From: Ignavibacteriota bacterium
GTDB lineage: Bacteria > Bacteroidota > Ignavibacteria > Palsa-1295
Reading direction: 5' to 3'
Assembly: GCA_963787835.1 (NCBI GenBank)
Contig: CAWBEI010000002.1
Span: 476,369-540,368 of the forward strand
DNA: 64,000 nucleotides
Shown here: piece by piece, positions 21,101-58,561 of the stretch
Numbering within the stretch: position 1 is the stretch's first letter
Layout: every line of letters begins with the position of its first letter
Made by a program: the position numbers and the translations under genes
Notes under the pieces: model-generated
Told to the model about the DNA's origin: nothing
Databases searched by the model: none
The model's input: only the letters and a program-made list of their open reading frames with translations

Positions 21101-23791
21101 CGTGATATTGCTCGTCGCAACCGTATCGTGGATCCCGGATGAATACACGAAAAAGTTGTGCTCGTTGTAGATACGAACCGCCGAGCACGAGTCGTTCGCG
21201 AACATCCCGTTCCCGTGGATCACCAGATCCTTCAGCGTGATGTTGCTTGCACCGTATTCGATACCGAAGACCGCACCCGCCTTCGTCTCGTTGCTGACGA
21301 TCGTCAAGCCGCGCTTCAAGGGCTCTGCCGTCACCTTGTCCGGGGACGGAACCGTCGACGGGTTATAGCCCTCGAAGTTCATATAACCAGGGAAGTGGTC
21401 GCCCATGTAAAAACAGAATGGCTGTGAGCCGCTGAACGTGATCGTCGGATTTTGGCCCGGATATGGGATCCATGTTACCGTCGAACTCGCCGAAAGGCCG
21501 TTGATCTGGCCAAGGTCCACCGCGCCATACGGAGAGGCCACATCGGTGTTCCCGTTCTCCGTGTAGGACGCATCCGTCAGGATCATCCGTACGTTCGCTC
21601 CGATACCGCGGAACCGCATCGTGTCCACCGCCTGATGGATCGTCTGGAACTGGCGCCCTACGCCCACATAGTAATCGCCCTTCAAACGGTCGATGATCGA
21701 AAACTGCGTGCACGACGTGTCGTTCGTCTGGTTCTCGTCGCTGCCCGCGCTGCTGCTGAAGTCTGCGATCGCGCACAGCGTGTAGCATCCCGGCGGGATC
21801 GTCGCGATCGTGTGGTATGCACCCGCGTTCGCTGTCGTTGGAAACTTGAACAGCACCTGACCCTGGTCGATGTTCAAGGCATCTTCTACCGTATCCGACT
21901 GGAATGCCAGCAACCCATCCGAACAACGGCGGATCTGGCAACGGATCTTGAAGCTGAACAGGTCCGATACACCCACCGACTGGAACAGCGCCGATGGCTG
22001 CCACGTCGTCAAATACGGCTTCTCTTCACCCGGCTGAGGGTTGAACACTCCCACCGAGGCCGCATCGTAAAGTGGAAGGATCGGCGTCGGAGATTTCGTC
22101 GTGTCGTCCGCACGCAGCTGATCGTTACCCATGATCGCAATACCGAAGACCGTATCCACGCCCAGCGTCACCGGAGTCCACGTCGGGCTTGAAGGGAACG
22201 CCGTATCGTAATACGCGCCTCTACCCGGACCCTGACCGCTCGAGGAATAATCCGTCACCCCATCCGAGTTGCCACCCATTGGGCCGGAAGGCCAGTATGG
22301 GATCACGACCGTGTCACGGAAGACCACTTTGCCCGTCGCGTCGTGTACCGTTGCCGTCACCGGTACATTGTATTGCGTGTCCGTTCCAAGGTTACGGAAA
22401 CGGATCGAGATCGGCGTCGCAATATCCACCTGAGTACGGGAACCCGCCGGAGGATTGATCACCGAGACCCCCTTGATATCGTTCGGTGGAGCGCACGTCC
22501 ACTCATCCGTCGATTGGTTGTCCGATGGATCCTGATCTGCCGTCGGCTGCAGATTGAACACCGTCATCGTGTCCTCGTAAATACCGTAGCCCGTGCTCTG
22601 CGCTTCGCCGAACTGCGCCGGTTCGCCAGGTGCGAACGCCGGGAACGTGATCGTCGTCTGGCTGAACCCTGCCGGGATCTGCGAGCTGTTCAGCGTGATC
22701 GTCTGATTATACACCTGGCCTACGCCATACTCCGAGATCGTGAAGTTCACCTGGCACGACGTCGAGACCTGGGAACCCGAATTAGCAAGGATCGCCGTTG
22801 GGGTGAAATACGTATTGATCGCCTGTGGAGTTTCGCTGGCAGGATTGGTGATCGTACCGGCCGTCAGATTATATGGCCAAGCAATCGCGATGCGGTAACT
22901 GACCTGCGGGAGCAACGGCTCCGTCGCGTTGTCTTCCGCATATCCGTAATAATCGACGATCGGCTGATTCGATGGGTTGCCGCCGTTGCCGTTCCAGCCA
23001 ATGGTCAGGAAGTCGCCGCCGCCCGATCCCTTAATGCCGGTCAGGCCGCTGTAAGCTTCAATAAGCCAGCCGCCATAGGAGTAATAGTAACCCCAGCTCG
23101 AATTAAATGTACCACTCTGTGGACCATAATTGAATTGGAAACTCGATATACCGCTTTCATAGACAACAGCCTGAAAATCTCCATTGAGGCCGGCCGAAGA
23201 GCCGTATTCATATGCATAAAGGCCGAGGGTCTGCACGACGAGCTCGCGGTTCGGGGCAGAGCCTAAAACGGCATAAGAGCAATTCGGAGCCGGACCATAC
23301 GTGAGGAAGCCCTCGAACGGTGCTAGCTTATAGTTTGGATAATAGGACTCATAAGGAGCATAGTCATATTCACTCTCCAAAAAATCATACTCATAATCCT
23401 CGTACACATAGCCATACTCACTCAGATAAAAAAAATCGGCATCATAATCGTACGCATAGTTGGCGGTCCAAGTGGGGCTAAAGATGACAGAACCGTATGA
23501 ATTAACTTCAAAATTGCCGGTGGTGGCGATCTGTTGGTTTTCAAACCGGAACGCGAACGGCACCGTATAACTCGGAGACATCTGATAATAATATCCCAGA
23601 CCCGAGACCGCCGTTCCGCTGATCGCACTCCAGTTCGGGCCTGAACCCAAACCCTGAGCATCAGGCGTCGTGATCATGTGCACAAGATAGCTTCTCATAG
23701 AGTACGTTTGCGCACGCACGACCCCGGTGGAAATCAAGCCGAACGCAACGAGCATGATTAGGAAAGCGTAGAGTTTTTTCATAGACTTCAA
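18173..23791 (-). CDS. Giant (1,872 aa) secreted T9SS cargo protein: Tyr/Gly/Ser-rich N-terminal region, right-handed parallel beta-helix (pectate-lyase-like), FN3 domain, and T9SS type-A C-terminal sorting domain
   Basis: Signal peptide. Beta-helix-like repeats (…NITLKDLVIHGNG…, …NNCELGNAKYGIYDHG…). An FN3-like block (…RIAAVDETGAETYS…). The C-terminus …LRVMDVTGKVV…GSYLYEMTATGADGRSATLSSKLTIEKQ is the sorting domain. Confidence 0.85.
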   Translation of the reverse strand: MKSMKKLYAFLIMLVAFGLISTGVVRAQTYSMRSYLVHMITTPDAQGLGSGPNWSAISGTAVSGLGYYYQMSPSYTVPFAFRFENQQIATTGNFEVNSYGSVIFSPTWTANYAYDYDADFFYLSEYGYVYEDYEYDFLESEYDYAPYESYYPNYKLAPFEGFLTYGPAPNCSYAVLGSAPNRELVVQTLGLYAYEYGSSAGLNGDFQAVVYESGISSFQFNYGPQSGTFNSSWGYYYSYGGWLIEAYSGLTGIKGSGGGDFLTIGWNGNGGNPSNQPIVDYYGYAEDNATEPLLPQVSYRIAIAWPYNLTAGTITNPASETPQAINTYFTPTAILANSGSQVSTSCQVNFTISEYGVGQVYNQTITLNSSQIPAGFSQTTITFPAFAPGEPAQFGEAQSTGYGIYEDTMTVFNLQPTADQDPSDNQSTDEWTCAPPNDIKGVSVINPPAGSRTQVDIATPISIRFRNLGTDTQYNVPVTATVHDATGKVVFRDTVVIPYWPSGPMGGNSDGVTDYSSSGQGPGRGAYYDTAFPSSPTWTPVTLGVDTVFGIAIMGNDQLRADDTTKSPTPILPLYDAASVGVFNPQPGEEKPYLTTWQPSALFQSVGVSDLFSFKIRCQIRRCSDGLLAFQSDTVEDALNIDQGQVLFKFPTTANAGAYHTIATIPPGCYTLCAIADFSSSAGSDENQTNDTSCTQFSIIDRLKGDYYVGVGRQFQTIHQAVDTMRFRGIGANVRMILTDASYTENGNTDVASPYGAVDLGQINGLSASSTVTWIPYPGQNPTITFSGSQPFCFYMGDHFPGYMNFEGYNPSTVPSPDKVTAEPLKRGLTIVSNETKAGAVFGIEYGASNITLKDLVIHGNGMFANDSCSAVRIYNEHNFFVYSSGIHDTVATSNITVNNCELGNAKYGIYDHGYHDAYDPVKGAYTTWRNYNDVITRNTVGTSSNPLSYAGIQFNSETGIVISHNEISNVNANVVPQGGGATWNVYGIVQPNMNTYIGPPSNPQWAGDTGNVTGAWIDANRIRIMTSAAGNTHGIALQQSSWQYTSTGLTNVKSTLPAVTQNRLTNNMILDLRTSAGKVFPILMTTISSTSGTVPYSTDKDSVFNNSISTNNATSNITIKYAKHAFIWNNIFQNTGTGPYTNYNLEVPRPYASSISSDYNVFDLRGTNVFDSVTEYDARYGTVFQSLYFRRLNDWRTYVGQDSHSLSGDPLFGTPAMGVDSLHMPPALTYIESPASNNGAWLGTSSEAHDFDGDVRSQNNPSPDIGADEWDGFQFTNDLAVLEISQPGGFSQTSDTSLVTTESPLWITGVVKNLSSVGVYSQKVTATVQRSVNGVWTTVYTGTSAPLTWQVGESKSVAFQGPALTASNSTGVFRVTVSVPNDQNDANNSQTKTFTILLKQNAVLLSYNGAASDGRQNRDSVIAALNRLGVPFDTIDRNAPKGLPNTTIIDYTPWWTIVWSSGDPGVAPVAGQSTGQGGPTLQETDEITRYLGAGQSYAKKSLVIAGQHIAYYNGYVQSNNPVTDTQWMQSTMHTQYVANYPTSSSYIGRIVGQQPAYWTFADSLSIPVNPNGSDCEECSTDLTSSLTPNVIMPSLTTPAVGPKVNGYAYTYSNYSYSNPNNGAGVSYYDPLVNTVFYAFDWANPHQTSPSTAAQDALTSGTTRTLAAAFAFFRSHNGTILPIDNVSASIQRVSGNAATITWDVVGLPNVVRYDVEQQNQNSWTVLHPVTAVADQTDYASSITGLDPSQSYTYRIAAVDETGAETYSNTVELGPDASQLGFTLGQSYPNPSAGVTEVSFTLPEASQVTLRVMDVTGKVVNSEVTNQSFEAGTQNVKLDLTSLPSGSYLYEMTATGADGRSATLSSKLTIEKQ

Positions 23792-24130: not shown

Positions 24131-27100
24131 TTACTGTTTTTCGATGGTGAGCTTGCTCGAGAGCGTGGCGCTGCGGCCGTCGGCTCCGGTGGCGGTCATC
24201 TCATAGAGATAGCTGCCGCTCGGTAGCGAGGTCAGGTCGAGCTTCACGTTCTGGGTGCCCGCCTCGAACGACTGGTTCGTCACCTCGCTGTTGACCACCT
24301 TGCCCGTCACGTCCATCACCCGCAGCGTTACCTGCGAGGCTTCCGGAAGCGTGAACGATACCTCCGTCACACCGGCCGAGGGATTCGGATAGCTCTGGCC
24401 CAGTGTAAAGCCAAGCTGGCTTGCATCCGGACCCAGTTCCACCGTATTCGAGTACGTCTCCGCACCCGTCTCATCGACCGCCGCAATGCGGTACGTGTAC
24501 GACTGCGAAGGATCCAGACCCGTGATCGAGGAGGCATAGTCCGTCTGATCCGCGACCGCCGTCACCGGATGCAGCACCGTCCAGCTGTTCTGGTTCTGCT
24601 GCTCCACATCGTAGCGTACCACGTTCGGCAAGCCTACCACATCCCACGTGATCGTCGCGGCATTACCGCTGACCCGCTGAATGCTCGCACTCACATTGTC
24701 GATCGGTAGGATCGTACCATTGTGACTGCGGAAGAAGGCAAAGGCTGCTGCAAGCGTTCGTGTCGTACCGCTCGTCAATGCATCCTGTGCCGCCGTGCTC
24801 GGAGACGTCTGGTGCGGGTTCGCCCAGTCAAAGGCATAGAACACCGTGTTCACCAGGGGATCGTAATACGATACACCCGCTCCATTGTTCGGATTGCTGT
24901 ACGAGTAGTTCGAGTACGTGTACGCATACCCGTTGACCTTCGGACCCACCGCAGGCGTCGTCAGGGATGGCATGATCACGTTCGGTGTCAGGCTCGAGGT
25001 CAGATCCGTCGAGCATTCCTCGCAGTCACTCCCGTTCGGATTGACCGGGATCGAAAGGCTGTCCGCAAACGTCCAGTACGCCGGCTGCTGGCCCACGATC
25101 CGGCCAATATACGAGGAACTCGTCGGGTAGTTCGCCACATACTGTGTGTGCATCGTCGATTGCATCCATTGCGTATCCGTCACCGGATTGTTCGACTGCA
25201 CATACCCATTGTAGTAGGCAATGTGCTGGCCCGCGATCACAAGGCTCTTCTTCGCATAGCTCTGCCCTGCGCCCAGATACCGCGTGATCTCATCCGTCTC
25301 CTGCAGCGTCGGACCGCCCTGACCCGTCGACTGACCGGCAACCGGGGCAACGCCCGGATCGCCGCTCGACCACACGATCGTCCACCACGGCGTGTAATCG
25401 ATGATCGTCGTGTTCGGAAGGCCCTTCGGAGCGTTACGGTCGATCGTGTCGAACGGTACCCCTAATCGGTTCAACGCCGCGATCACCGAATCACGGTTCT
25501 GACGGCCATCCGAGGCCGCACCATTATAGGAAAGCAATACCGCATTCTGCTTCAACAGGATCGTAAACGTCTTCGTCTGCGAGTTGTTCGCGTCGTTCTG
25601 GTCGTTCGGGACGCTCACCGTTACCCGGAACACCCCCGTGCTGTTCGACGCCGTCAACGCCGGACCCTGGAACGCGACGCTCTTCGACTCGCCCACCTGC
25701 CACGTCAACGGGGCAGACGTGCCCGTATACACCGTCGTCCATACACCATTGACCGAACGCTGCACCGTCGCCGTGACCTTCTGGCTATAGACGCCTACGC
25801 TCGATAGGTTCTTCACCACGCCCGTGATCCATAACGGACTCTCCGTCGTCACTAAGGACGTGTCGCTCGTCTGCGAGAACCCGCCCGGCTGTGAGATCTC
25901 TAAGACCGCAAGATCGTTCGTGAACTGGAACCCGTCCCATTCATCCGCCCCGATGTCCGGGCTCGGATTGTTCTGCGAACGAACGTCTCCGTCGAAATCA
26001 TGAGCCTCCGACGACGTACCAAGCCACGCGCCGTTGTTCGAGGCCGGACTTTCGATGTACGTCAAGGCCGGTGGCATGTGCAACGAATCCACTCCCATCG
26101 CTGGCGTACCGAACAACGGATCGCCCGATAACGAGTGGCTGTCCTGACCCACATACGTACGCCAGTCGTTCAAACGGCGGAAGTACAGGCTCTGGAATAC
26201 CGTCCCATACCGTGCGTCGTACTCCGTCACCGAGTCGAAGACGTTCGTGCCACGCAAATCGAATACGTTATAGTCCGAACTGATCGAACTTGCATACGGA
26301 CGAGGTACCTCTAAGTTGTAGTTCGTGTACGGACCGGTGCCCGTGTTCTGGAAAATGTTGTTCCAGATGAACGCGTGCTTCGCGTATTTGATCGTGATGT
26401 TCGATGTCGCGTTGTTCGTCGAGATCGAGTTGTTGAACACCGAATCCTTGTCCGTCGAATACGGAACCGTGCCCGACGTCGAAGAGATCGTCGTCATCAG
26501 GATCGGGAACACCTTCCCCGCGCTCGTACGAAGGTCTAAGATCATGTTGTTCGTCAATCGGTTCTGCGTTACCGCCGGTAACGTCGATTTCACATTCGTC
26601 AGACCCGTGCTCGTGTACTGCCACGACGACTGCTGCAGCGCGATCCCATGCGTGTTGCCCGCTGCCGATGTCATGATACGGATCCGGTTCGCATCGATCC
26701 AGGCACCCGTCACGTTACCCGTGTCACCCGCCCACTGAGGGTTCGAAGGCGGGCCGATGTACGTGTTCATGTTCGGCTGTACAATGCCATACACATTCCA
26801 CGTCGCTCCGCCGCCCTGCGGTACTACGTTCGCGTTCACGTTCGAGATCTCGTTGTGTGAGATCACGATCCCGGTCTCGCTGTTGAACTGGATGCCCGCG
26901 TACGATAATGGGTTCGACGACGTACCTACCGTGTTCCGCGTGATCACGTCATTGTAGTTGCGCCACGTCGTGTACGCACCCTTCACCGGATCGTACGCAT
27001 CGTGGTACCCGTGATCGTAGATCCCATACTTCGCATTGCCAAGCTCGCAATTATTAACCACGAGATTGTTCATCGCTACGGTATCGCGAATACCCGAGCC

Positions 27101-29791
27101 ATAGACATAGAAGTTGTGCTCGTTGTAGATACGGACCGCCGAGCACGAGTCGTTCGCGAACATCCCGTTCCCGTGGATCACCAGATCCTTCAGCGTGATG
27201 TTGCTCGCACCGTATTCGATACCGAAGACCGCACCCGCCTTCGTCTCGTTGCTGACGATCGTCAAGCCGCGCTTCAAGGGCTCGGCCGTCACCTTGTCCG
27301 GGGACGGAACCGTCGACGGGTTATAGCCCTCGAAGTTCATATAACCAGGGAAGTGGTCGCCCATGTAAAAACAGAATGGCTGTGAGCCGCTGAACGTGAT
27401 CGTCGGATTTTGGCCCGGATATGGGATCCACGTCACCGTCGAACTCGCCGAAAGGCCGTTGATCTGGCCAAGGTCCACCGCGCCATACGGAGAGGCCACA
27501 TCGGTGTTCCCGTTCTCCGTGTAGGACGCATCCGTCAGGATCATCCGTACGTTCGCTCCGATACCGCGGAACCGCATCGTGTCCACCGCCTGATGGATCG
27601 TCTGGAACTGGCGCCCTACGCCCACATAGTAATCGCCCTTCAAACGGTCAATGATCGAAAACTGCGTGCACGACGTGTCGTTCGTCTGGTTCTCGTCGCT
27701 GCCCGCGCTGCTGCTGAAGTCTGCGATCGCGCACAGCGTGTAGCATCCCGGCGGGATCGTCGCGATCGTGTGGTATGCACCCGCGTTCGCTGTCGTTGGA
27801 AACTTGAACAGCACCTGACCCTGGTCGATGTTCAAGGCATCTTCTACCGTATCCGACTGGAATGCCAGCAACCCATCCGAACAACGGCGGATCTGGCAAC
27901 GGATCTTGAAGCTGAACAGGTCCGATACACCCACCGACTGGAACAGCGCCGATGGCTGCCACGTCGTCAAATACGGCTTCTCTTCACCCGGCTGAGGGTT
28001 GAACACTCCCACCGAGGCCGCATCGTAAAGTGGAAGGATCGGCGTCGGAGATTTCGTCGTGTCGTCCGCACGCAGCTGATCGTTACCCATGATCGCAATA
28101 CCGAAGACCGTATCCACGCCCAGCGTCACCGGAGTCCACGTCGGGCTTGAAGGGAACGCCGTATCGTAATACGCGCCTCTGCCCGGACCCTGACCGCTCG
28201 AGGAATAATCCGTCACCCCATCCGAGTTGCCACCCATTGGGCCGGAAGGCCAGTAAGGGATCACGACCGTGTCACGGAAGACCACTTTGCCCGTCGCGTC
28301 GTGTACCGTTGCCGTCACCGGTACATTGTATTGCGTGTCCGTTCCAAGGTTACGGAAACGGATCGAGATCGGCGTAGCAATATCCACCTGGGTTCGGGAA
28401 CCCGCCGGAGGATTGATCACCGAGACCCCCTTGATGTCGTTCGGTGGAGCGCACGTCCACTCATCCGTCGATTGGTTGTCTGCGGGATCCTGATCTGCCG
28501 TCGGCTGTAGATTGAACACCGTCATCGTGTCCTCGTAGATCCCATAGCCCGTGCTTTGGGCTTCGCCGAACTGCGCCGCCTGACCTGGCGCAAACTGCGG
28601 GAACGTGATCGTCGAATTGCTGAACGCCGCCGGGATCTGCGAGCTGTTCAGGGTGATCGTCTGATTATATACCTGGCCTACGCCATACTCCGAGATCGTG
28701 AAGTTCACCTGGCACGACGTTGAGACCTGCGAACCCGAATTTGTAAGGATCGCCGTTGGGGTGAAGTTCGTATTGATCGCCTGTGGAGTTTCGCTGGCAG
28801 GATTGGTGATCGTACCAGCCGTCAGATCGTACGGCCAAGCGATGAACACACGATAGCTCGATTGCGGGAGCAGAGGCTCCGTCGCGTTGTCTTCCGCTGC
28901 ATAGCCATAGGCAAAACTGGTGTAGCCACTATTAGAATAATTATTGCAGTATTGAACCAACGGTTGATTCGAAGGGCTGCCGCCGTTGCCGTTCCAGCCG
29001 ATCGTCAGGTAATTACCGCCTGTGGATTTGACGGCAGTGTAGCCCGAGTATGATTCGATCAGCCAGCCGCCATAGGAGTAATAATACCCCCAGCTTGAGT
29101 TCCACGTCCCGGTCATCGGACCATAATTGAACTGGAAGTTCGAGATCCCTGACTCATAGACAACCGTCTGCCAGCTTCCAAAACATTGTGATAAGCCATA
29201 ATAATAAGAGGGTACAGCATCGGCCTCTACGACAAGCTCACGATTCGGAGCCGAGCCGAGAACCGTATAGAGCACGTTATAGCCAGAGCTGGGGCCATCT
29301 GTCAAAAACCCTTCGAAGGGGGCCAGCCTGTAATTGCCGTAATAGGAGTACCCGTAGTTGTAATCCTCTTCGTTCTCATAGAGGCAGTATGGAATGTAGT
29401 CATACACGTACCCATATTCACTTAGAAAAAACCAATCGTACCCACCGTAATCGTAGTTGGCAGTGCTGGGCCAGGTGGGGCTGAACACGACCGTGCCATA
29501 GTTGTTAAACCGGAACGTGTTTGTCGTCGCGATCTGCGTGTTTAAGAACCGGAATGCAAACGGCACCTGATAGGCCGCCGACATTTGTTCGCCATCGTAC
29601 TGCGATGACAATCCGCCGCTGGTGCCTGTGACGGAATGCCAGTTCGAGCCGGAACCTAATCCCTGCGGATCAGGCGTATCGACCTTCCGGACGAAGTAGC
29701 TGGTCATCGTGTACGTTTGCGCCTGCGCAACCTCGGAGGAAATGATTCCGAGCGCGAAAAGCGCGAGAAGAAAAGCGTAGAGTTTTTTCAT
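24131..29791 (-). CDS. Giant (1,886 aa) secreted T9SS cargo protein, tandem paralog of 18173..23791. Identical over the C-terminal ~1,560 aa except one ~25-aa patch; the N-terminal ~300 aa are diverged
   Basis: The reverse-frame ORFs in the six-frame track are sequence-identical between the copies (for example 18764..19507 and 24722..25465). Same domain order as gene 1. Confidence 0.85.
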   Translation of the reverse strand: MKKLYAFLLALFALGIISSEVAQAQTYTMTSYFVRKVDTPDPQGLGSGSNWHSVTGTSGGLSSQYDGEQMSAAYQVPFAFRFLNTQIATTNTFRFNNYGTVVFSPTWPSTANYDYGGYDWFFLSEYGYVYDYIPYCLYENEEDYNYGYSYYGNYRLAPFEGFLTDGPSSGYNVLYTVLGSAPNRELVVEADAVPSYYYGLSQCFGSWQTVVYESGISNFQFNYGPMTGTWNSSWGYYYSYGGWLIESYSGYTAVKSTGGNYLTIGWNGNGGSPSNQPLVQYCNNYSNSGYTSFAYGYAAEDNATEPLLPQSSYRVFIAWPYDLTAGTITNPASETPQAINTNFTPTAILTNSGSQVSTSCQVNFTISEYGVGQVYNQTITLNSSQIPAAFSNSTITFPQFAPGQAAQFGEAQSTGYGIYEDTMTVFNLQPTADQDPADNQSTDEWTCAPPNDIKGVSVINPPAGSRTQVDIATPISIRFRNLGTDTQYNVPVTATVHDATGKVVFRDTVVIPYWPSGPMGGNSDGVTDYSSSGQGPGRGAYYDTAFPSSPTWTPVTLGVDTVFGIAIMGNDQLRADDTTKSPTPILPLYDAASVGVFNPQPGEEKPYLTTWQPSALFQSVGVSDLFSFKIRCQIRRCSDGLLAFQSDTVEDALNIDQGQVLFKFPTTANAGAYHTIATIPPGCYTLCAIADFSSSAGSDENQTNDTSCTQFSIIDRLKGDYYVGVGRQFQTIHQAVDTMRFRGIGANVRMILTDASYTENGNTDVASPYGAVDLGQINGLSASSTVTWIPYPGQNPTITFSGSQPFCFYMGDHFPGYMNFEGYNPSTVPSPDKVTAEPLKRGLTIVSNETKAGAVFGIEYGASNITLKDLVIHGNGMFANDSCSAVRIYNEHNFYVYGSGIRDTVAMNNLVVNNCELGNAKYGIYDHGYHDAYDPVKGAYTTWRNYNDVITRNTVGTSSNPLSYAGIQFNSETGIVISHNEISNVNANVVPQGGGATWNVYGIVQPNMNTYIGPPSNPQWAGDTGNVTGAWIDANRIRIMTSAAGNTHGIALQQSSWQYTSTGLTNVKSTLPAVTQNRLTNNMILDLRTSAGKVFPILMTTISSTSGTVPYSTDKDSVFNNSISTNNATSNITIKYAKHAFIWNNIFQNTGTGPYTNYNLEVPRPYASSISSDYNVFDLRGTNVFDSVTEYDARYGTVFQSLYFRRLNDWRTYVGQDSHSLSGDPLFGTPAMGVDSLHMPPALTYIESPASNNGAWLGTSSEAHDFDGDVRSQNNPSPDIGADEWDGFQFTNDLAVLEISQPGGFSQTSDTSLVTTESPLWITGVVKNLSSVGVYSQKVTATVQRSVNGVWTTVYTGTSAPLTWQVGESKSVAFQGPALTASNSTGVFRVTVSVPNDQNDANNSQTKTFTILLKQNAVLLSYNGAASDGRQNRDSVIAALNRLGVPFDTIDRNAPKGLPNTTIIDYTPWWTIVWSSGDPGVAPVAGQSTGQGGPTLQETDEITRYLGAGQSYAKKSLVIAGQHIAYYNGYVQSNNPVTDTQWMQSTMHTQYVANYPTSSSYIGRIVGQQPAYWTFADSLSIPVNPNGSDCEECSTDLTSSLTPNVIMPSLTTPAVGPKVNGYAYTYSNYSYSNPNNGAGVSYYDPLVNTVFYAFDWANPHQTSPSTAAQDALTSGTTRTLAAAFAFFRSHNGTILPIDNVSASIQRVSGNAATITWDVVGLPNVVRYDVEQQNQNSWTVLHPVTAVADQTDYASSITGLDPSQSYTYRIAAVDETGAETYSNTVELGPDASQLGFTLGQSYPNPSAGVTEVSFTLPEASQVTLRVMDVTGKVVNSEVTNQSFEAGTQNVKLDLTSLPSGSYLYEMTATGADGRSATLSSKLTIEKQ

Positions 29792-54343: not shown

Positions 54344-54722
54344 TCACGAATTTCAATCCCGAAAGGACGGCATATTTGCAGCCCCGGACGTGAGTCCGGG
54401 GTTTTGCGTTTTGTATAAACGCGTAGGTCGGTGCTTCCATCGTGGGCGATGGAGCCAGCCCGACAATCCCCGAGAACGAAAGAAAAAGTGCCGTAGGGAC
54501 GTGCTGCGCACGTCCTTTGTGCCGGAGCGCTAATTCCAGATTTTGGATGATCTCAAATTCGTTTGACATTCACCGGGGCGGACGTGCGCAGCACGTCCCT
54601 ACGGATCCAGCTCCGATATGAGCGGCATATTGGTAGCCCCGTGCGTAAGCGCGGGGTGCGCGGGATCTTTTTAAGAGCCAGAGTCCCGGAGCGACGACAC
54701 AAAAAAGTGCCGGAGGCACGAA

Positions 54723-54926
54723 GTACCCGCAGCCCAGGGTGGAGCGAAGCGGAACCCTGGGTAACGAATAAAATTAGAGTTTATTAGCCCTGAAAGGGCG
54801 ATGTTTGCCGCCGGGATTTTACAACGCCCTTTCAGGGCTTGGGAACATAAAACGCAACGCTAACCCAGGGTTCCGCTCGCAAGCTCGCTTCACCCTGGGC
54901 TGCGAGTACTCCGTCGCTCCGCGACT
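54723..54926. mobile_element. MITE derivative of the IS200/IS605-like element (left-end hairpin, inner palindrome, right-end hairpin; no tnpA)
   Basis: Left GTACCCGCAG-CCCAGGG…CCCTGGG (54723-54766). Inner AGCCCTGAAAGGGCG…CGCCCTTTCAGGGCT (54786-54839). Right …CACCCTGGG-CTGCGAGTAC-TCCGTCGCTCCGCGACT (54862-54926). It ends 7 nt from the stop of the 298-aa gene. Confidence 0.55.
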
Positions 54927-54932
54927 AATTGC

Positions 54933-55829
54933 TCATTCAATTATTGGAACTATCTGAATTTTGTTGGACAGTTCGGTACGACCGAAACTTTTCAGGAAGG
55001 ATTGCAGGGCGTTGAAGCCGGATTGGTCAGGTACGACGATTTCCAAAACATCCTCATCGTTGAACGTTAAGTTGAATTCGGGCTTTAACCATTTATCGTC
55101 AGAACCAGCGTCAATAGTTTCGTCGCCCTTAAAACCATGAGGAGACAGTGCGCGCCATTCCCTCTCATCATAATTGCGAATGCGCTCTCCGGTTGGGAGA
55201 TTTTCTTCGTAGCAGCGCATATAGGAGTCGCGATCCTCAAGTTCATTGTGGAGCCTGCGTATAGCCCACATTAGAGCACTGAAGGTTTGCCGCATTGCTT
55301 CATCTTCTGGCAGGTTGCCATCTGCAATCGCAACTAATTCCCGCATGTATTTTTCGAGTTTGCCGTGTTCGGTTCGAAGAGCCGTTGGGTCCATTGGCGT
55401 TCCATCTCCATATTGCTCAGAGAGTTCACGGAGTCTTGATGCCTGCAACATTTGCAAATAACTTCTGTCCGAACTATATGGCTCCGGCAACACGTCCGGC
55501 AAATGATTTAAGTTCTTGAATGCTAAGTACGAGCCTCCGACACCTACGGAGTCAGTATGCACATAACGGACGGGCGAAATCCGATTTTTTATTCCCCATT
55601 CCTTTGTCAAACCAATGGCCACCGGACGCGCTTTGCGAAGGTGTGGAGCGTCAGATGAAGGCAGGTCGCAAAAACAAACAACATAATTGGTCTGCGTGTA
55701 AGGAAACTTGGGGTATGGAACCGTTTCGACCTGTTTAGAATAGCGGAACCCGCCACAGGCCAGAATCGATTTGCATGCCTCTAATGATGTATAATGGAAA
55801 AGCGTGTCAGTACTGATCTTATTGGGCAT
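54933..55829 (-). CDS. Hypothetical protein with an AbiGi/DUF2971-like N-terminal motif; candidate abortive-infection / defense component
   Basis: N-terminal …TLFHYTSLEACKSILACGGF… matches the FHYT…IL signature of those families. The rest is unassigned. Confidence 0.4.
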   Translation of the reverse strand: MPNKISTDTLFHYTSLEACKSILACGGFRYSKQVETVPYPKFPYTQTNYVVCFCDLPSSDAPHLRKARPVAIGLTKEWGIKNRISPVRYVHTDSVGVGGSYLAFKNLNHLPDVLPEPYSSDRSYLQMLQASRLRELSEQYGDGTPMDPTALRTEHGKLEKYMRELVAIADGNLPEDEAMRQTFSALMWAIRRLHNELEDRDSYMRCYEENLPTGERIRNYDEREWRALSPHGFKGDETIDAGSDDKWLKPEFNLTFNDEDVLEIVVPDQSGFNALQSFLKSFGRTELSNKIQIVPIIE

Positions 55830-55854
55830 ATCCCCTCCAAAATTTTACATTATT

Positions 55855-56391
55855 TTACGCCTTCAAAAACCCCAGCTCATACACCATTGGCTGTAACTTT
55901 TCCGTCAATGCTTTGTAGGCCGATTCGAAGGGTTTGAAGCTGACGGGCGGGAAATCGCCGCTTTCGTTACGAGCTTGCAACGCCTTGCGGATTTGATACC
56001 ACCCCACATCCGCGCGGTTTAGTTTTAGTTCTTCGCGGACGGTGTGAACGTCAGTATCGGCAAAATATGCTTTCCACAATGCTTTTCCGGCTTCGAGCAC
56101 TGCGCTGGCTTCTTTCGAGAATTTCTTACCGCGCATATATTGCACCATAAAATCGCTCTCGAACCTGTCGGGCGCGCCGACCTCTTTTTCAGTGAAGGGA
56201 ATGAAATGGTTCACGATGCTCCACTTCTTTCCGTTCCATTCTAAATCGTTGGCGCTGGCGGTGAGGTTGCTGCCTAAGAATTTAGTCCCGAAGGGATGGT
56301 GTACTCGCAGCCCAGGGTGTAGCGTAGCGGAACCCTGGGTTCGAGGTAGGTATAAATTTCTAAGCCCCGAAGGGGCGATGTACCTAATCAT
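55855..56391 (-). CDS. Hypothetical protein. Its 5' end is overlapped by the IS200-like left end, so the true start is uncertain
   Basis: ORF encoding …GKKWSIVNHFIPFTEKEVGAPDRFESDFMVQYMRGKKF… with no recognisable family. The first ~30 codons coincide with 56301-56377 of the element. Confidence 0.3.
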   Translation of the reverse strand: MIRYIAPSGLRNLYLPRTQGSATLHPGLRVHHPFGTKFLGSNLTASANDLEWNGKKWSIVNHFIPFTEKEVGAPDRFESDFMVQYMRGKKFSKEASAVLEAGKALWKAYFADTDVHTVREELKLNRADVGWYQIRKALQARNESGDFPPVSFKPFESAYKALTEKLQPMVYELGFLKA

Positions 56392-56803
56392 CGTCCTTCA
56401 AAAAATATTTTGGATCGTATTCAATCCCTGCCGCTTTCAACATATCCTCAAACTCTTCTTGGAACGTCTTATGACGATGATGTTCCTCTTGATTTTCGAT
56501 GTATTGCGCGACATTCTTGAGATGACTTGCGCTTACGCTGAATACACCATAACCGCCTTGCCAGCTAAAATCTTTTCCTAATTTTGATTTCAACCAAGCC
56601 GATGATTTCGATTTTATCTCACGAACGACGGTTGCGACCGACGATTCACGACCGAGATCGATCAGGAGGTGCACATGATCAGGCATTCCGCCTTCCATAA
56701 TCAATCGCGCCTTGCATTCGTGCAAGATCGGAGGTTAACCCAACATTCCGTCCGCCGCGGCGGACTCCATGTTGGGCTGCGAGTACTCCGTCGCTCCGCG
56801 ACT
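56301..56803 (-). mobile_element. tnpA: IS200/IS605-like insertion element: left-end hairpin, N-terminally truncated Y1 (HuH) transposase TnpA (56384..56725), right-end hairpin
   Basis: The 113-aa ORF carries the HuH motif (…PDHVHLLI…), the catalytic Tyr block (…GGYGVFSVS…) and the family C-terminal motif …YIENQEE. It starts at TTG directly after an in-frame TAA at the right-end boundary, so it lacks the N-terminal ~40 aa. Left end: GTACTCGCAG-CCCAGGG…CCCTGGG. Right end: CCCAACAT…ATGTTGGG-CTGCGAGTAC. Confidence 0.7.
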
Positions 56804-56830
56804 ATTGAATCTCAGTGGCGAAGCCACGAT

Positions 56831-57009
56831 GTACTCGCAGCCCAGGGCGCGCGAAGCAAGCCCTGGGTCATGAATTTTAACAAAATCAAGCCCTGTAAGG
56901 GCGGTGTACTTCGCCCTTTCAGGGCTTGATAAAAATAAGAATGGTTCCGTTAACCCAACATTCCGCTTCGCTCCATGTTGGGCTGCGAGTACTCCGTCGC
57001 TCCGCGACT
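56831..57009. mobile_element. Second MITE derivative (left end, inner palindrome AGCCCTGTAAGGGCG/CGCCCTTTCAGGGCT, right end); its last bases supply the stop codon of the HNH ORF
   Basis: Same terminal and subterminal hairpins as the element at 54723-54926. Confidence 0.55.
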
Positions 57010-57322
57010 AAGATTCGCCAACAAGTGCATCCATGATTGGAATATTTCTCCGGCGGGAATTATCGTGCAAGCAACATGTCACGAGATTATCGTATGAATT
57101 ATCCCCGCCTTTTGTGACAGGCTGAATGTGATCGAGCGTCGCGCTGAATCGTGTTAGCTGCTTACCGCATTTGTAACACTTGTAGCCGTCCCGTTCGAAA
57201 ATCTTGAGACGATTTTCAGCGACATTGTAAAAGAGTGCCGAATTCCACGACCGAGTGACGAAACAAATACCAATAGAATGCGGCCTCGTATGGTAACAAT
57301 CGGGGCTGAAGAAAATCCACAA
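57008..57322 (-). CDS. HNH endonuclease
   Basis: …GYKCYKCGKQLT…LDHIQPVTKGGDNSYDNLVTCCLHDNSRRRN… gives the full HNH / zinc-finger motif. The start is probably downstream of the annotated Met. Confidence 0.7.
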   Translation of the reverse strand: MWIFFSPDCYHTRPHSIGICFVTRSWNSALFYNVAENRLKIFERDGYKCYKCGKQLTRFSATLDHIQPVTKGGDNSYDNLVTCCLHDNSRRRNIPIMDALVGES

Positions 57323-57449
57323 TCTGACAGACGATACCTGGATGTTCGAGAGCGTCGAAGTTTCTCTCGAACGAATCCGGAGCGGCAGCCTTTGAATCCG
57401 TTTCGATCTCGTTAAGCAGTTCTCGAATTTTTTCGATTTGTTCTTTCAT
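57216..57449 (-). CDS. Small hypothetical ORF; overlaps the HNH ORF in another frame
   Basis: 77 aa. Its stop overlaps the HNH ORF by 107 nt, so the pair may be one frameshifted gene. Confidence 0.25.
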   Translation of the reverse strand: MKEQIEKIRELLNEIETDSKAAAPDSFERNFDALEHPGIVCQIVDFLQPRLLPYEAAFYWYLFRHSVVEFGTLLQCR

Positions 57450-57700
57450 ATTTTTACAAAATTACGAATAAACTCATCTTCCTGCGTTTCGATCTTGAAG
57501 GAAACGAGGTGCGTACCGATATACTGCGAGACGGTGTCCAGCGCTTCCTGCGTAACGTCGCTCGCCCGCTTGCCCCACTTGATCGTCTTTTTTTCGAGGA
57601 ACGGAATAACGTCCGCGCTCTTCATTATAGCCGCTTTCTGCGTATCGACCACCGCAAGAAATGGCGGAACATACTCGCCCTTGTTCAATGCCTGCTGCAC
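57446..57700 (-). CDS. Small hypothetical ORF (GTG start) in 4-nt overlap with the next ORF
   Basis: 84 aa, with ATGA-type coupling to 57216..57449. Confidence 0.25.
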   Translation of the reverse strand: MQQALNKGEYVPPFLAVVDTQKAAIMKSADVIPFLEKKTIKWGKRASDVTQEALDTVSQYIGTHLVSFKIETQEDEFIRNFVKI

Positions 57701-57897
57701 ATAATGCAGACCGCCGCGGCGGACGTGAACATCGCATAACTGGAAAGCTTGGAGTTATCCTTCGCCTCGAACCAAATTTCTTTGGTTTGAATATCGATCA
57801 GGTTTTTCGAATACCCCTTCAACCCCAGCGCCTTGATGTAAATATCCTTCACATCCTCCTCGCTTTTGCACTGTTTCAGTTTTTCAAAGAGGGTCAT
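57685..57897 (-). CDS. Small hypothetical ORF; first of four consecutive overlapping minus-strand ORFs
   Basis: 70 aa. Its 3' end overlaps the next ORF at a CCGCCGCGGCGG palindrome. Confidence 0.25.
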   Translation of the reverse strand: MTLFEKLKQCKSEEDVKDIYIKALGLKGYSKNLIDIQTKEIWFEAKDNSKLSSYAMFTSAAAVCIMCSRH

Positions 57898-58047
57898 GCG
57901 TGTGAAGGGTTATGGATTGGGTTATGAATTCGGGATTGATGCTTTGCGGGCGCGGGAAAGAACATAGTGGGCACCTATTTCGTGTTCCATCCATCCCACG
58001 ATTTGTGCCGTCCCTCCGGGACTTTTAACTCTAAAAAAATCGCTAAC

Positions 58048-58067
58048 CCCGGACTCACGTCCGGGGC
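58048..58067. repeat. GC-rich hairpin CCCCGGACTCACGTCCGGGG. It is the exact reverse complement of 54383-54402, and together the two bracket the island
   Basis: Flanking bases also match (…catatt[t/c]g[c/t]agccccggacgtgagtccggggtt…), giving ~35-bp imperfect inverted repeats. Confidence 0.6.
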
Positions 58068-58561
58068 TACGAATATGTCGTGCCTATCGGCACTAAGAAA
58101 ATAATTTGGAATTTTGAGGCGTCTCGGAAAAGTGTCGTATATTAGGTGGTGAGATGATGGGCACCTATATCAATTACGAATTAAGAATTACGAATTAAGA
58201 GTAGGGGCTCGGGGTTCATTGACAATCGTCGGCGGTGGCTTTCGTTATGAACGAGTCCTTTGAGAAAATGGATTTTACTATTCTTTCAGAACAAATGGCG
58301 AAAGCAGCTCGGAAACGAGGGGTCTTCGGGAACTCACAAGAAAAAGAAATGGCACCTATTTCCAATAGAACATTAGTAAGGGTGGTAAACATTTTTACCT
58401 ACGTACCGGGAAACGGGAAGGAGCAAAATTCGTTGTGAAGGTACTCTGGCACGTTTAGCCGGAACATCCTCCATAATCACGACACGTTGCCTTTGATCGA
58501 ACCACCCTCCACTCCCACTGGAAATCCGGTCCCGCCGGATCTGCCACCCGATCCACATATC

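What the first reader, a model, noticed from the sequence alone, without database searches (positions are those of the whole stretch)
54933..56391. Two-gene cassette with an AbiGi/DUF2971-like N-terminal motif: candidate abortive-infection or defense module of unknown type
The 298-aa protein begins …TLFHYTSLEACKSILACGGF…, the hallmark motif of AbiGi-type and DUF2971 proteins. The upstream 178-aa partner has no recognisable family, and its 5' end has been invaded by the IS200-like left end. The gene sizes (178 + 298 aa) do not fit the classical AbiGi/AbiGii pair. It could be an undescribed variant or a remnant.
Basis: inference. Interest (0 to 1): 0.5.

Follow-up and report, generated by a model that had tools for sequence, protein, structure and literature searches.

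The report
Lone AbiGi gene beside restriction-gene remnant
The 298-aa gene is a real, intact member of the AbiGi phage-defence family with a DarT-like ADP-ribosyltransferase fold, but its supposed 178-aa partner is the leftover tail of a broken MmeI-like restriction-modification gene, so this is a single cargo gene in a variable defence slot and not a new two-gene system.

Summary
Both ORFs are at the stated coordinates. The 298-aa protein passes Pfam AbiGi (49 bits against a cutoff of 22.4). Its model (pLDDT 84) is closest to DarT and Tpt1, and it keeps the family's invariant YDEREWR motif.

The 178-aa ORF is a chimera. About 37 codons are read through a REP repeat next to a truncated RAYT. 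The other 140 codons are residues 671-810 of an ~800-aa MmeI-like adenine methyltransferase family that is unannotated and 68-83% identical across phyla. The 5' end of that gene lies frameshifted at 57467-57903. Its middle has been replaced by an HNH ORF, REPs and the RAYT.

The pairing is not found elsewhere. None of about 90 other loci that carry the tail has an AbiGi gene. The closest AbiGi relative is solo, and no AbiGii was seen next to roughly 50 relatives.

The site just after the tail's stop codon is a variable slot. In other genomes it holds unrelated genes such as HEPN_AbiU2, PLD, OLD-like and RhuM.

My best reading is a stand-alone, NAD-dependent abortive-infection effector carried as cargo; the chemistry is inferred.

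One thing is unexplained: both remnants of the broken gene show strong purifying selection (dN/dS 0.04-0.11).

The parts
54933..55829 (-). Intact 298-aa AbiGi-family gene (ART fold, DarT/Tpt1-like); the cargo gene in the slot
55830..55854 (-). 25-nt spacer with a GGAGGGG ribosome-binding site; similarity to sister loci stops exactly at the tail's stop codon
   Evidence: Sequence; alignment of five loci.
55855..56280 (-). Last 140 codons plus stop (residues 671-810) of an ~800-aa MmeI-like methyltransferase/nuclease gene (the 'tail')
   Evidence: tblastn to the full-length L051 gene, 72% identity over q671-810. More than 1000 homologs, longer ones extending upstream. dN/dS 0.07-0.11 among four loci with the same junction.
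56281..56391 (-). First ~37 codons of the 178-aa ORF, read through a REP hairpin repeat and the 3' flank of the RAYT; the ATG overlaps the RAYT stop
   Evidence: Repeat families D1/D3 and inverted repeats I1/I3; junction alignment against intact genes.
56384..56725 (-). 5'-truncated REP-associated tyrosine transposase (RAYT/IS200-like), 113 aa here against 151 aa in sister loci
   Evidence: Pfam Y1_Tnp 1.3e-17, profile positions 39-121 only. NCBIfam IS200 and REP_Tyr_transpos, both below cutoff. Comparison with L094/L095.
56739..57011 (.). REP copies upstream of the RAYT fragment (56762-56805, 56814-56847, 56953-57011)
   Evidence: the repeat finder D1, D2, I8, I13; REP core scan; sub-threshold Rfam Acido-Lenti-1 hits.
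57008..57449 (-). HNH endonuclease ORF split by a frameshift (57449-57216 and 57322-57008), occupying the place of the deleted middle of the MmeI-like gene
   Evidence: Pfam HNH 8.2e-09; ORF list; translations.
57467..57903 (-). 5' fragment (residues 10-152) of the same MmeI-like gene, with one frameshift near 57710-57724; contains the D..ExK nuclease-like motif
   Evidence: tblastn q10-69 in frame -2 and q72-152 in frame -1; 84-aa piece matches residues ~65-145 of 803-846-aa proteins; dN/dS 0.04 against L093.
54700..54928 (.). REP doublet starting 5 nt after the AbiGi stop; the conserved right-hand boundary of the cargo slot
   Evidence: Inverted repeat I5; the same ~235-nt block follows the cargo genes in L093, L095 and L096.

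Best explanation
The interval holds one functional gene and one gene remnant, not a two-gene system. The 298-aa gene is a stand-alone member of the AbiGi family. It was captured as cargo in a variable slot bounded by the stop codon of a conserved MmeI-like restriction-modification-type gene and by a REP doublet. In this genome that MmeI-like gene has been destroyed. Its methyltransferase and target-recognition middle was replaced by an HNH ORF, REPs and a RAYT, which left a frameshifted 5' piece and a 140-codon 3' tail. The tail is read as a '178-aa protein' only because an ATG in the RAYT stop region opens a frame through a REP.

Proposed mechanism (inferred, not shown): AbiGi is an ADP-ribosyltransferase-fold enzyme of the nucleic-acid-directed DarT/Tpt1 type. 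It has a His on the first strand and an E222-x-E224 motif. It stays inactive until phage infection and then uses NAD+ to modify DNA or RNA, blocking phage nucleic-acid synthesis in an abortive-infection manner, without an AbiGii partner.
For: Shown by tools:
- AbiGi family membership.
- A confident model whose best PDB matches are four DarT structures, Tpt1 and other ARTs.
- An invariant YDEREWR motif and 88% conserved H12.
- Purifying selection on the gene.
- The 178-aa ORF equals REP codons plus residues 671-810 of an ~800-aa gene.
- The 5' fragment of the same gene at 57467-57903.
- None of about 90 other tail-bearing loci has an AbiGi homolog.
- 34 loci have a tightly linked downstream gene and all 34 are mutually unrelated. 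These include HEPN_AbiU2 twice, PLDc_2, PDDEXK_3, DUF559, IrrE+HTH and RhuM and an OLD-like ATPase.
- Similarity between sister loci ends at the tail's stop codon and resumes at the REP doublet.
- In L019, L051, L074 and L079 the cargo is followed by a 27-83-nt direct repeat of the gene's own 3' end; L015 has such a repeat just ahead of its first downstream ORF.
- The closest AbiGi homolog is solo. Pfam scans of 95 flanking ORFs from about 50 AbiGi loci listed no AbiGii.

From the literature: AbiGi is counted as an ART family near DarT and DUF2971 (PMC12522546). Lactococcal AbiG affects phage transcription or replication and is triggered by a major tail protein (PMC13064643).
Against: - ADP-ribosylation is inferred from fold and motifs only. 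A profile of the family finds no DarT by sequence in the PDB.
- Foldseek support is weak (best E 0.13).
- A 2026 review reported no significant fold hits for lactococcal AbiGi (PMC13064643).
- The near-invariant Y67 is Ala in this protein and Ser/Thr in its two closest relatives.
- Classical AbiG needs two genes. Pfam labels AbiGi an antitoxin, and neither AbiG protein was toxic in E. coli (PMC3985639).
- The tail ORF is under purifying selection and sits in operon-like spacing with AbiGi, so a role for it cannot be excluded.
- The model of the parent protein is of low confidence (pLDDT 57.7).
Confidence: 0.72

Rival explanations
1. One reading: the 178-aa and 298-aa proteins form a new two-component Abi or toxin-antitoxin module, an AbiGi/AbiGii variant with unusual sizes.
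For: Same strand, 25-nt spacing, RBS before the second gene. The tail part of the 178-aa ORF shows dN/dS 0.07-0.11, so it may still be translated and useful.
Against: The pair is unique to this genome among about 90 other tail loci. The same tail precedes unrelated genes. The nearest AbiGi relative lacks it. The ORF's first 37 codons are REP sequence. It has no AbiGii or other family hit.
Confidence: 0.07
2. R-M-linked latent effector, as in PrrC-EcoprrI. AbiGi-type proteins are normally held in check by, or cooperate with, an adjacent type IIG/IIL enzyme and fire when a phage disables restriction. Here the guard gene has decayed and the AbiGi gene is orphaned.
For: AbiGi relatives sit beside DNA methyltransferase genes in several unrelated loci. 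In L157 a 1235-aa Eco57I/MmeI-type gene ends 28 nt upstream. In L112 a 1013-aa type IIG gene starts 38 nt downstream. In L109 an Eco57I/N6_Mtase gene is 207 nt downstream. In L120 an N6_N4_Mtase gene ends 5 nt upstream. The PrrC precedent is in PMC1484252.
Against: Most AbiGi loci have no methyltransferase neighbour. The slot after the MmeI-like gene accepts any kind of gene, which fits co-localisation in defence islands better than a specific partnership. The AbiGi gene is still under selection after loss of the R-M gene.
Confidence: 0.12
3. The two ends of the broken MmeI-like gene (N-terminal nuclease-like piece and C-terminal tail) are retained as working mini-proteins, or as portable homology arms for swapping defence cassettes. 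AbiGi is one such cassette.
For: dN/dS is 0.04 for the N-fragment (window against L093, dS 0.31) and 0.07-0.11 for tails. The RAYT-REP-tail junction is shared by window, L093, L094, L095 and L201, with RAYT dS 0.32-0.46 among the first four. In relatives the middle is replaced by NotI-type R-M (L096), EcoRII-type R-M (L199), MUG113 (L093) or HNH (window, L201) while the ends are kept.
Against: The window N-fragment is frameshifted and the L201 tail has a 3' frameshift, so decay does occur. Junctions differ between L096, L199 and the RAYT group, so some disruptions are independent and recent, which would by itself give low dN/dS. No function is known for either piece.
Confidence: 0.2
4. The AbiGi-like gene is itself a non-functional or non-defence leftover, for example an orphan antitoxin as in the Pfam label.
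For: Pfam describes AbiGi as a putative antitoxin. There is no partner toxin nearby. The Y67A substitution is present. The gene is surrounded by decaying DNA.
Against: The ORF is full length, with all 11 invariant residues and the same length as relatives at 45-68% identity. pN/pS is about 0.24 with saturated synonymous sites. The fold is that of an enzyme, not a typical antitoxin. The Y67 change is shared by the three closest homologs as a conserved HLR(K/R)xRP variant.
Confidence: 0.08

Closest known systems
Lactococcal AbiG (AbiGi + AbiGii, plasmid pCI750); Pfam PF10899 AbiGi
   Same: The 298-aa protein passes the Pfam AbiGi model and the PADLOC AbiGi model. It sits in a mobile, defence-rich context.
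   Different: No AbiGii partner. It is 298 aa against 249 aa and far below the NCBIfam equivalog cutoff (14 against 300 bits). It has a ~100-residue helical insert (residues ~99-201). The host is an uncultured Gram-negative-type bacterium.
DarT (ssDNA thymidine ADP-ribosyltransferase of DarTG) and Tpt1/KptA RNA 2'-phosphotransferase
   Different: 10-14% identity. No HMM or profile match. No macrodomain (DarG-like) antitoxin next to it. Catalytic residues are assigned by inference only.
DUF2971 (PF11185)
   Same: A similar N-terminal 'hYHYT'-type first strand, and described as related to AbiGi and DarT (PMC12522546).
   Different: No DUF2971 hit at E<=1, so it is a superfamily relative and not a member.
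MmeI / type IIL-IIG restriction-modification enzymes (for the parent of the 178-aa ORF)
   Different: No Pfam MmeI_Mtase, Eco57I or N6_Mtase hit; all database members are 'hypothetical'. Unusually uniform, 68-83% identity across phyla. In the window only residues 10-152 and 671-810 survive.
PrrC-EcoprrI and other Abi genes linked to R-M loci
   Same: An abortive-infection-type gene placed directly beside an R-M-type gene (PMC1484252); the same adjacency recurs for AbiGi relatives.
   Different: No evidence of functional coupling. The R-M gene here is dead, and the slot holds unrelated genes in other genomes.
RAYT/REP systems (IS200-like domesticated transposases with REP doublets)
   Same: A Y1_Tnp gene flanked by inverted REPs and a conserved ~175-nt-spaced REP doublet.
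   Different: The RAYT is 5'-truncated here. The REPs form the boundaries of a gene remnant plus a cargo gene.

Membership tests
AbiGi family (Pfam PF10899) | Significant match to the family HMM above the curated cutoff | tested here: met
   49.1 bits against 22.4, E 8.9e-13, residues 48-262; PADLOC AbiGi 3.8e-11; all 120 listed homologs carry PF10899.
AbiGi family (Pfam PF10899) | ART-like fold with conserved first-strand His and a C-terminal ExE-type acidic motif | tested here: met
Lactococcal AbiGI equivalog (NCBIfam NF042957) | Score at or above the equivalog cutoff | tested here: not met
   14 bits against a cutoff of 300.
Two-gene AbiG system (AbiGi + AbiGii) | Adjacent AbiGii-family gene in the same operon | tested here: not met
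   The upstream ORF has no Pfam, PADLOC or NCBIfam hit and is an MmeI-like tail. Downstream is a REP doublet and then EF-G on the other strand. No AbiGii was listed among 95 flanking ORFs of about 50 relatives.
Two-gene AbiG system (AbiGi + AbiGii) | Confers abortive phage resistance | not testable with these tools
   Needs expression and phage challenge.
DUF2971 (PF11185) | Match to the family HMM | tested here: not met
   Not among hits at E<=1.
DarT/DarTG | DarT HMM match and an adjacent macrodomain antitoxin | tested here: not met
   Fold similarity only. No sequence or profile match. No macrodomain gene in the neighbourhood.
DarT/DarTG | NAD+-dependent ADP-ribosylation of ssDNA | not testable with these tools
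   Biochemical assay needed.
MmeI-like type IIL/IIG R-M enzymes (parent of the 178-aa ORF) | Gamma-class N6-adenine methyltransferase motifs (x-YTP, FxGxG-like, NPPY) in one polypeptide with an N-terminal PD-(D/E)xK-type motif | tested here: met
   Invariant G281, T285, P286, D313, C315, G317, N320, N398-P-P-Y401 and D46...E55-A-K57 in 27 full-length sequences.
MmeI-like type IIL/IIG R-M enzymes (parent of the 178-aa ORF) | Match to Pfam MmeI_Mtase, Eco57I or N6_Mtase models | tested here: not met
   Only MTS at E 0.091; PADLOC MTase_II at 0.0034; precomputed Pfam '-' for all 120.
MmeI-like type IIL/IIG R-M enzymes (parent of the 178-aa ORF) | Fold similarity to MmeI across methyltransferase plus target-recognition region | tested here: inconclusive
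RAYT/REP | Y1 transposase domain flanked by inverted REP hairpins | tested here: met
   Y1_Tnp 64.5 bits; REPs on both sides in inverted orientation. The gene lacks its first ~40 codons.

The most novel reading that the evidence does not exclude
The conserved ends of a promiscuous, so far unannotated ~800-aa MmeI-like gene act as a portable landing pad for defence cargo. Genes such as this AbiGi, AbiU2 HEPN proteins, OLD-like nucleases or whole R-M systems are inserted just after its stop codon, sometimes leaving a repeat of its 3' end, or replace its middle. Meanwhile the N-terminal and C-terminal fragments stay under purifying selection, either as exapted mini-proteins or as homology arms for cassette exchange between distant bacteria.
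Probability: 0.3. Interest if true: 0.65.

Novelty: new member of a known kind. Interest (0 to 1): 0.4.

Why it matters
For the finding itself, it corrects an attractive but wrong reading. There is no new two-gene Abi system here, only a solo AbiGi-family gene. The result adds support to the idea that AbiGi proteins are DarT-like ADP-ribosyltransferase-fold effectors that work without AbiGii in most lineages. This conflicts with the 'antitoxin' label in Pfam and gives a testable mechanism for a family whose mode of action is still unknown.

The by-product may matter more. A very abundant family (more than 5000 clusters at 90% identity), highly conserved and completely unannotated, of MmeI-like genes marks a recurrent insertion site for defence genes. 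That site could be mined for new anti-phage genes, since several occupants have no known family.

Tried and rejected
- DUF2971 membership: no HMM hit.
- AbiGii or any family for the 178-aa ORF: none in Pfam, PADLOC, NCBIfam or PHROGs.
- Sequence links from the AbiGi profile or the full-length MmeI-like profile to PDB chains: nothing meaningful.
- An rRNA or spurious-ORF explanation for the extreme conservation of the tail: rejected, because substitutions are protein-like and full-length ORFs are intact in 55 of 80 genomes.
- The idea that the frequent 143-aa 'proteins' are a natural separate gene: in the one case checked (L097) the split is a single in-frame TAA.
- Sigma-70 promoter and terminator scan: uninformative.
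- A remnant of the tail's 3' end downstream of AbiGi in the window: none found.
- Organism identity: cluster look-ups returned no names.
- The full-length model of the parent protein was poor at the N-terminus, so the nuclease-domain assignment rests on the motif alone.

Full report
**Observation.** They are 25 nt apart, and a GGAGGGG ribosome-binding site precedes the second start. The 298-aa protein matches Pfam PF10899 (AbiGi) at 49.1 bits against a gathering score of 22.4 (E 8.9e-13), and the PADLOC AbiGi model at 3.8e-11. The HMM match covers residues 48-262 and not the N-terminal TLFHYTS motif. That motif is nevertheless conserved in relatives, with L10 in 57/60 and H12 in 53/60. DUF2971 is not hit. 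The score against the NCBIfam equivalog of lactococcal AbiGI is 14 bits against a cutoff of 300. So this is a family member, not an ortholog.

**What the AbiGi protein looks like.**
- Homologs of similar length (295-320 aa) exist at 68, 57 and 45% identity, and then at about 30%.
- In a 60-sequence alignment, F53, D55, W78, P86, Y89, Y220, E222, E224, W225, R226 and F256 are invariant. This gives a YDEREWR signature.
- An AlphaFold2 model built on that alignment is confident (pLDDT 83.7, pTM 0.78). It has a beta core and a less confident helical insert at about residues 99-201.
- Foldseek also ranks DarT first, but weakly. A sequence profile finds no DarT.
- The fold result agrees with a published survey that lists AbiGi as an ART family close to DarT and DUF2971 (PMC12522546). 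It goes beyond a 2026 review that found no fold match for lactococcal AbiGi (PMC13064643).
- Against its 68% homolog the gene shows pN 0.19 and pS 0.80, with synonymous sites saturated. It is therefore maintained by selection.
- The near-invariant Y67 is Ala here. The two closest relatives carry Ser or Thr, within a shared HLR(K/R)xRP variant. This looks like a clade feature and not a lesion.

**What the 178-aa ORF is.** Its first ~37 codons run through a REP-type hairpin repeat (56284-56340), and its ATG overlaps the stop codon of a RAYT/IS200-like gene fragment at 56384-56725. The remaining 140 codons have more than 1000 database relatives at 65-90% identity, and the longer ones extend upstream. 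In cultured and uncultured genomes the same sequence is the C-terminal end of an ~800-aa protein, for example L051:4456-6888 in Limnohabitans sp. 2KL-1. The window matches residues 671-810 of that protein at 56280-55861. It also matches residues 10-69 and 72-152 at 57903-57467, in two different frames. The 84-aa ORF at 57446-57700 independently finds residues ~65-145 of 803-846-aa proteins. The gene is therefore broken. Its middle, about 520 codons, has been replaced by a frameshifted HNH ORF (57008-57449), REP copies and the 5'-truncated RAYT.

**The parent family.**
- It is intact in 55 of the 80 genome loci retrieved. Identity is 68-83% across Bacteroidota, Saccharibacteria and other candidate phyla, Beta- and Gammaproteobacteria, Leptospiraceae and Ignavibacteria.
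- More than 5000 clusters exist. All are 'hypothetical' and none has a Pfam domain. NCBIfam and PDB sequence searches are also empty.
- Invariant motifs are D46...E55-A-K57, G-A-Y-Y-T-P, D-M-C-C-G-V-G-N and N-P-P-Y. These are the marks of a gamma-class N6-adenine DNA methyltransferase behind a PD-(D/E)xK-like N-terminus.
- I therefore call it MmeI-like. Membership in the Pfam-defined families is not met.

**Is the pair a system?** No.
- A tblastn search with the AbiGi protein against all loci held at that point found it only in copies of this same locus and in the 68% homolog. About 90 of those loci carry the tail, and none has an AbiGi gene.
- That 68% homolog (L001) sits between an acetyl-CoA carboxylase-type gene and an unrelated ORF, with no tail nearby.
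- In sister loci with the identical RAYT-REP-tail junction, the downstream gene is a different protein each time: 183, 224 and 181 aa with no known family. L201 has no same-strand cargo at all. In L199 the gene after the tail is an OLD-like ATPase-nuclease.
- Across all loci, 34 have a same-strand ORF starting within 150 bp of the stop codon, and all 34 are mutually unrelated.
- Of the 14 scanned against Pfam, eight have family hits: HEPN_AbiU2 twice, PLD nuclease, PD-(D/E)XK, DUF559, IrrE+HTH and RhuM. Six have none, and one further unscanned ORF resembles a RAYT by eye.
- Similarity between sister loci stops at the tail's TAA. It resumes at a ~235-nt REP doublet that in the window begins 5 nt after the AbiGi stop.
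- In the intact loci L019, L051, L074 and L079 the cargo is followed by a 27-83-nt direct repeat of the gene's own 3' end, which is an insertion signature. L015 has such a repeat just ahead of its first downstream ORF.
- AbiGi is thus one cargo among many in a variable slot.

**Context of AbiGi relatives.** About 50 metagenomic and viral loci were examined. Their neighbours are diverse defence and mobile genes: type IIG Eco57I/MmeI-type enzymes directly adjacent in L157 and L112, another methyltransferase in L109 and L120, AAA_15/21 ATPases, a UvrD-like helicase, Schlafen AlbA_2, a DpnII-type REase, integrases and transposases. No AbiGii was listed among them. Solo AbiGi genes in defence islands appear to be the rule for this branch. 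Adjacency to R-M genes recurs, which recalls PrrC-EcoprrI (PMC1484252) but does not prove coupling.

**Mechanism.**
- Shown: family, fold, conserved motifs, selection, cargo position and absence of a partner.
- Inferred: the protein binds NAD+ and ADP-ribosylates a nucleic acid (DarT-like) or an RNA end (Tpt1-like) after sensing infection, possibly through the helical insert. This would stop phage DNA or RNA synthesis.
- The inference fits the transcription and replication phenotypes reported for AbiG and its activation by a phage tail protein (PMC13064643). It also fits the lack of toxicity of AbiGi in uninfected E. coli (PMC3985639).
- I put about 0.45 on the ADP-ribosylation chemistry and about 0.85 on the structural reinterpretation of the locus.

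**Unexplained.** Both remnants of the broken gene look selected.
- Tails of the window, L093, L094 and L095 give dN/dS 0.07-0.11 at dS 0.47-1.0.
- The N-fragments of the window and L093 give 0.04 at dS 0.31.
- The linked RAYT has dS 0.32-0.46, and these loci share the same junction.
- On the other side, the window N-fragment is frameshifted and the L201 tail has a 3' frameshift.
- L096 and L199 have different junctions, with NotI-type and EcoRII-type R-M systems in the middle.
- Two readings remain open. The disruptions may be recent and repeated, or the ends may be kept as functional pieces or homology arms. This leaves a small chance that the tail ORF matters to whatever lies downstream of it.

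**Verdict.** The AbiGi gene is a new member of a known family. It is of moderate interest, mainly for the DarT-like fold and its solo state. The 'partner' is a remnant. The more novel lead is the unannotated MmeI-like family and its cargo slot.

Noticed in passing
window 55855-56280 and 57467-57903; L013-L092: An ~800-aa MmeI-like family (NPPY methyltransferase motifs, N-terminal D..ExK). It has more than 5000 clusters at 90% identity, no Pfam or NCBIfam domain, and is annotated 'hypothetical' everywhere. It is 68-83% identical across Bacteroidota, candidate phyla, Proteobacteria, Leptospiraceae and Ignavibacteria, which is unusually uniform for such a spread.
   Followed up: partly
L019, L051, L074, L079, L015 (downstream of the ~800-aa gene): In L019, L051, L074 and L079 the cargo genes after the stop codon are followed by a 27-83-nt direct repeat (87-92% identity) of the gene's own 3' end. 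This suggests insertion into, or duplication of, that end. In L015 the repeat lies just ahead of the first downstream ORF.
   Followed up: partly
window 58047-58094(+), 54355-54401(-), 56814-56867(-), 54706-54761(-), 56954-57009(+): The REP-like hairpin repeats of this region match Rfam RF01687 'Acido-Lenti-1 RNA'. One is above the gathering score (39 against 37 bits) and four are just below. Three of the below-threshold hits coincide with the REPs associated with the RAYT. The 'sRNA' motif may therefore be a REP element.
   Followed up: partly
window 55855-56280 and 57467-57903 against L093-L095: Both remnants of the broken gene show strong purifying selection (dN/dS 0.04-0.11 at dS 0.3-1.0), although the window N-fragment has a frameshift and the L201 tail a 3' frameshift.
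   Followed up: partly
L096:3279-6447; L199:1-3546; L093:6152-8537; L201:3142-5525: In related genomes the middle of the same gene is replaced by different inserts, while both ends are kept. The inserts are a NotI-type R-M pair, an EcoRII-type R-M pair, a MUG113 gene plus RAYT, or an HNH gene plus RAYT.
   Followed up: partly
window 57008-57449(-): An HNH endonuclease ORF split by a frameshift, unrelated in sequence to the intact HNH gene at the same position in L201.
   Followed up: no
L097:5960-6003 (and 14 other contigs): The frequent '143-aa' database proteins start at an internal Met of the tail. In the case checked, the 699+143-aa split is caused by a single in-frame TAA, so many of these entries may be pseudogene products.
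   Followed up: partly
window 54355-54700 and 58002-58090: There are further hairpin repeat families between AbiGi and the EF-G gene and upstream of the N-fragment. Examples are AGCCCCGGACGTGAGTCCGGGGTT and the perfect 25-nt palindrome arms at 54491-54515 and 54580-54604. The latter type also follows the tail stop in L095 and L096.
   Followed up: no
window 18173-23791(-) and 24131-29791(-): Two adjacent giant ORFs of 1872 and 1886 aa, with matching sets of internal antisense ORFs. They look like tandem paralogs.
   Followed up: no
L093:8567-9118, L094:8541-9215, L095:8658-9203, L096:6560-7363: Slot occupants in sister loci (183, 224, 181 and 267 aa). The first three had no Pfam or PADLOC hit and the 267-aa one was not scanned. 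They are candidates for unknown defence genes.
   Followed up: partly
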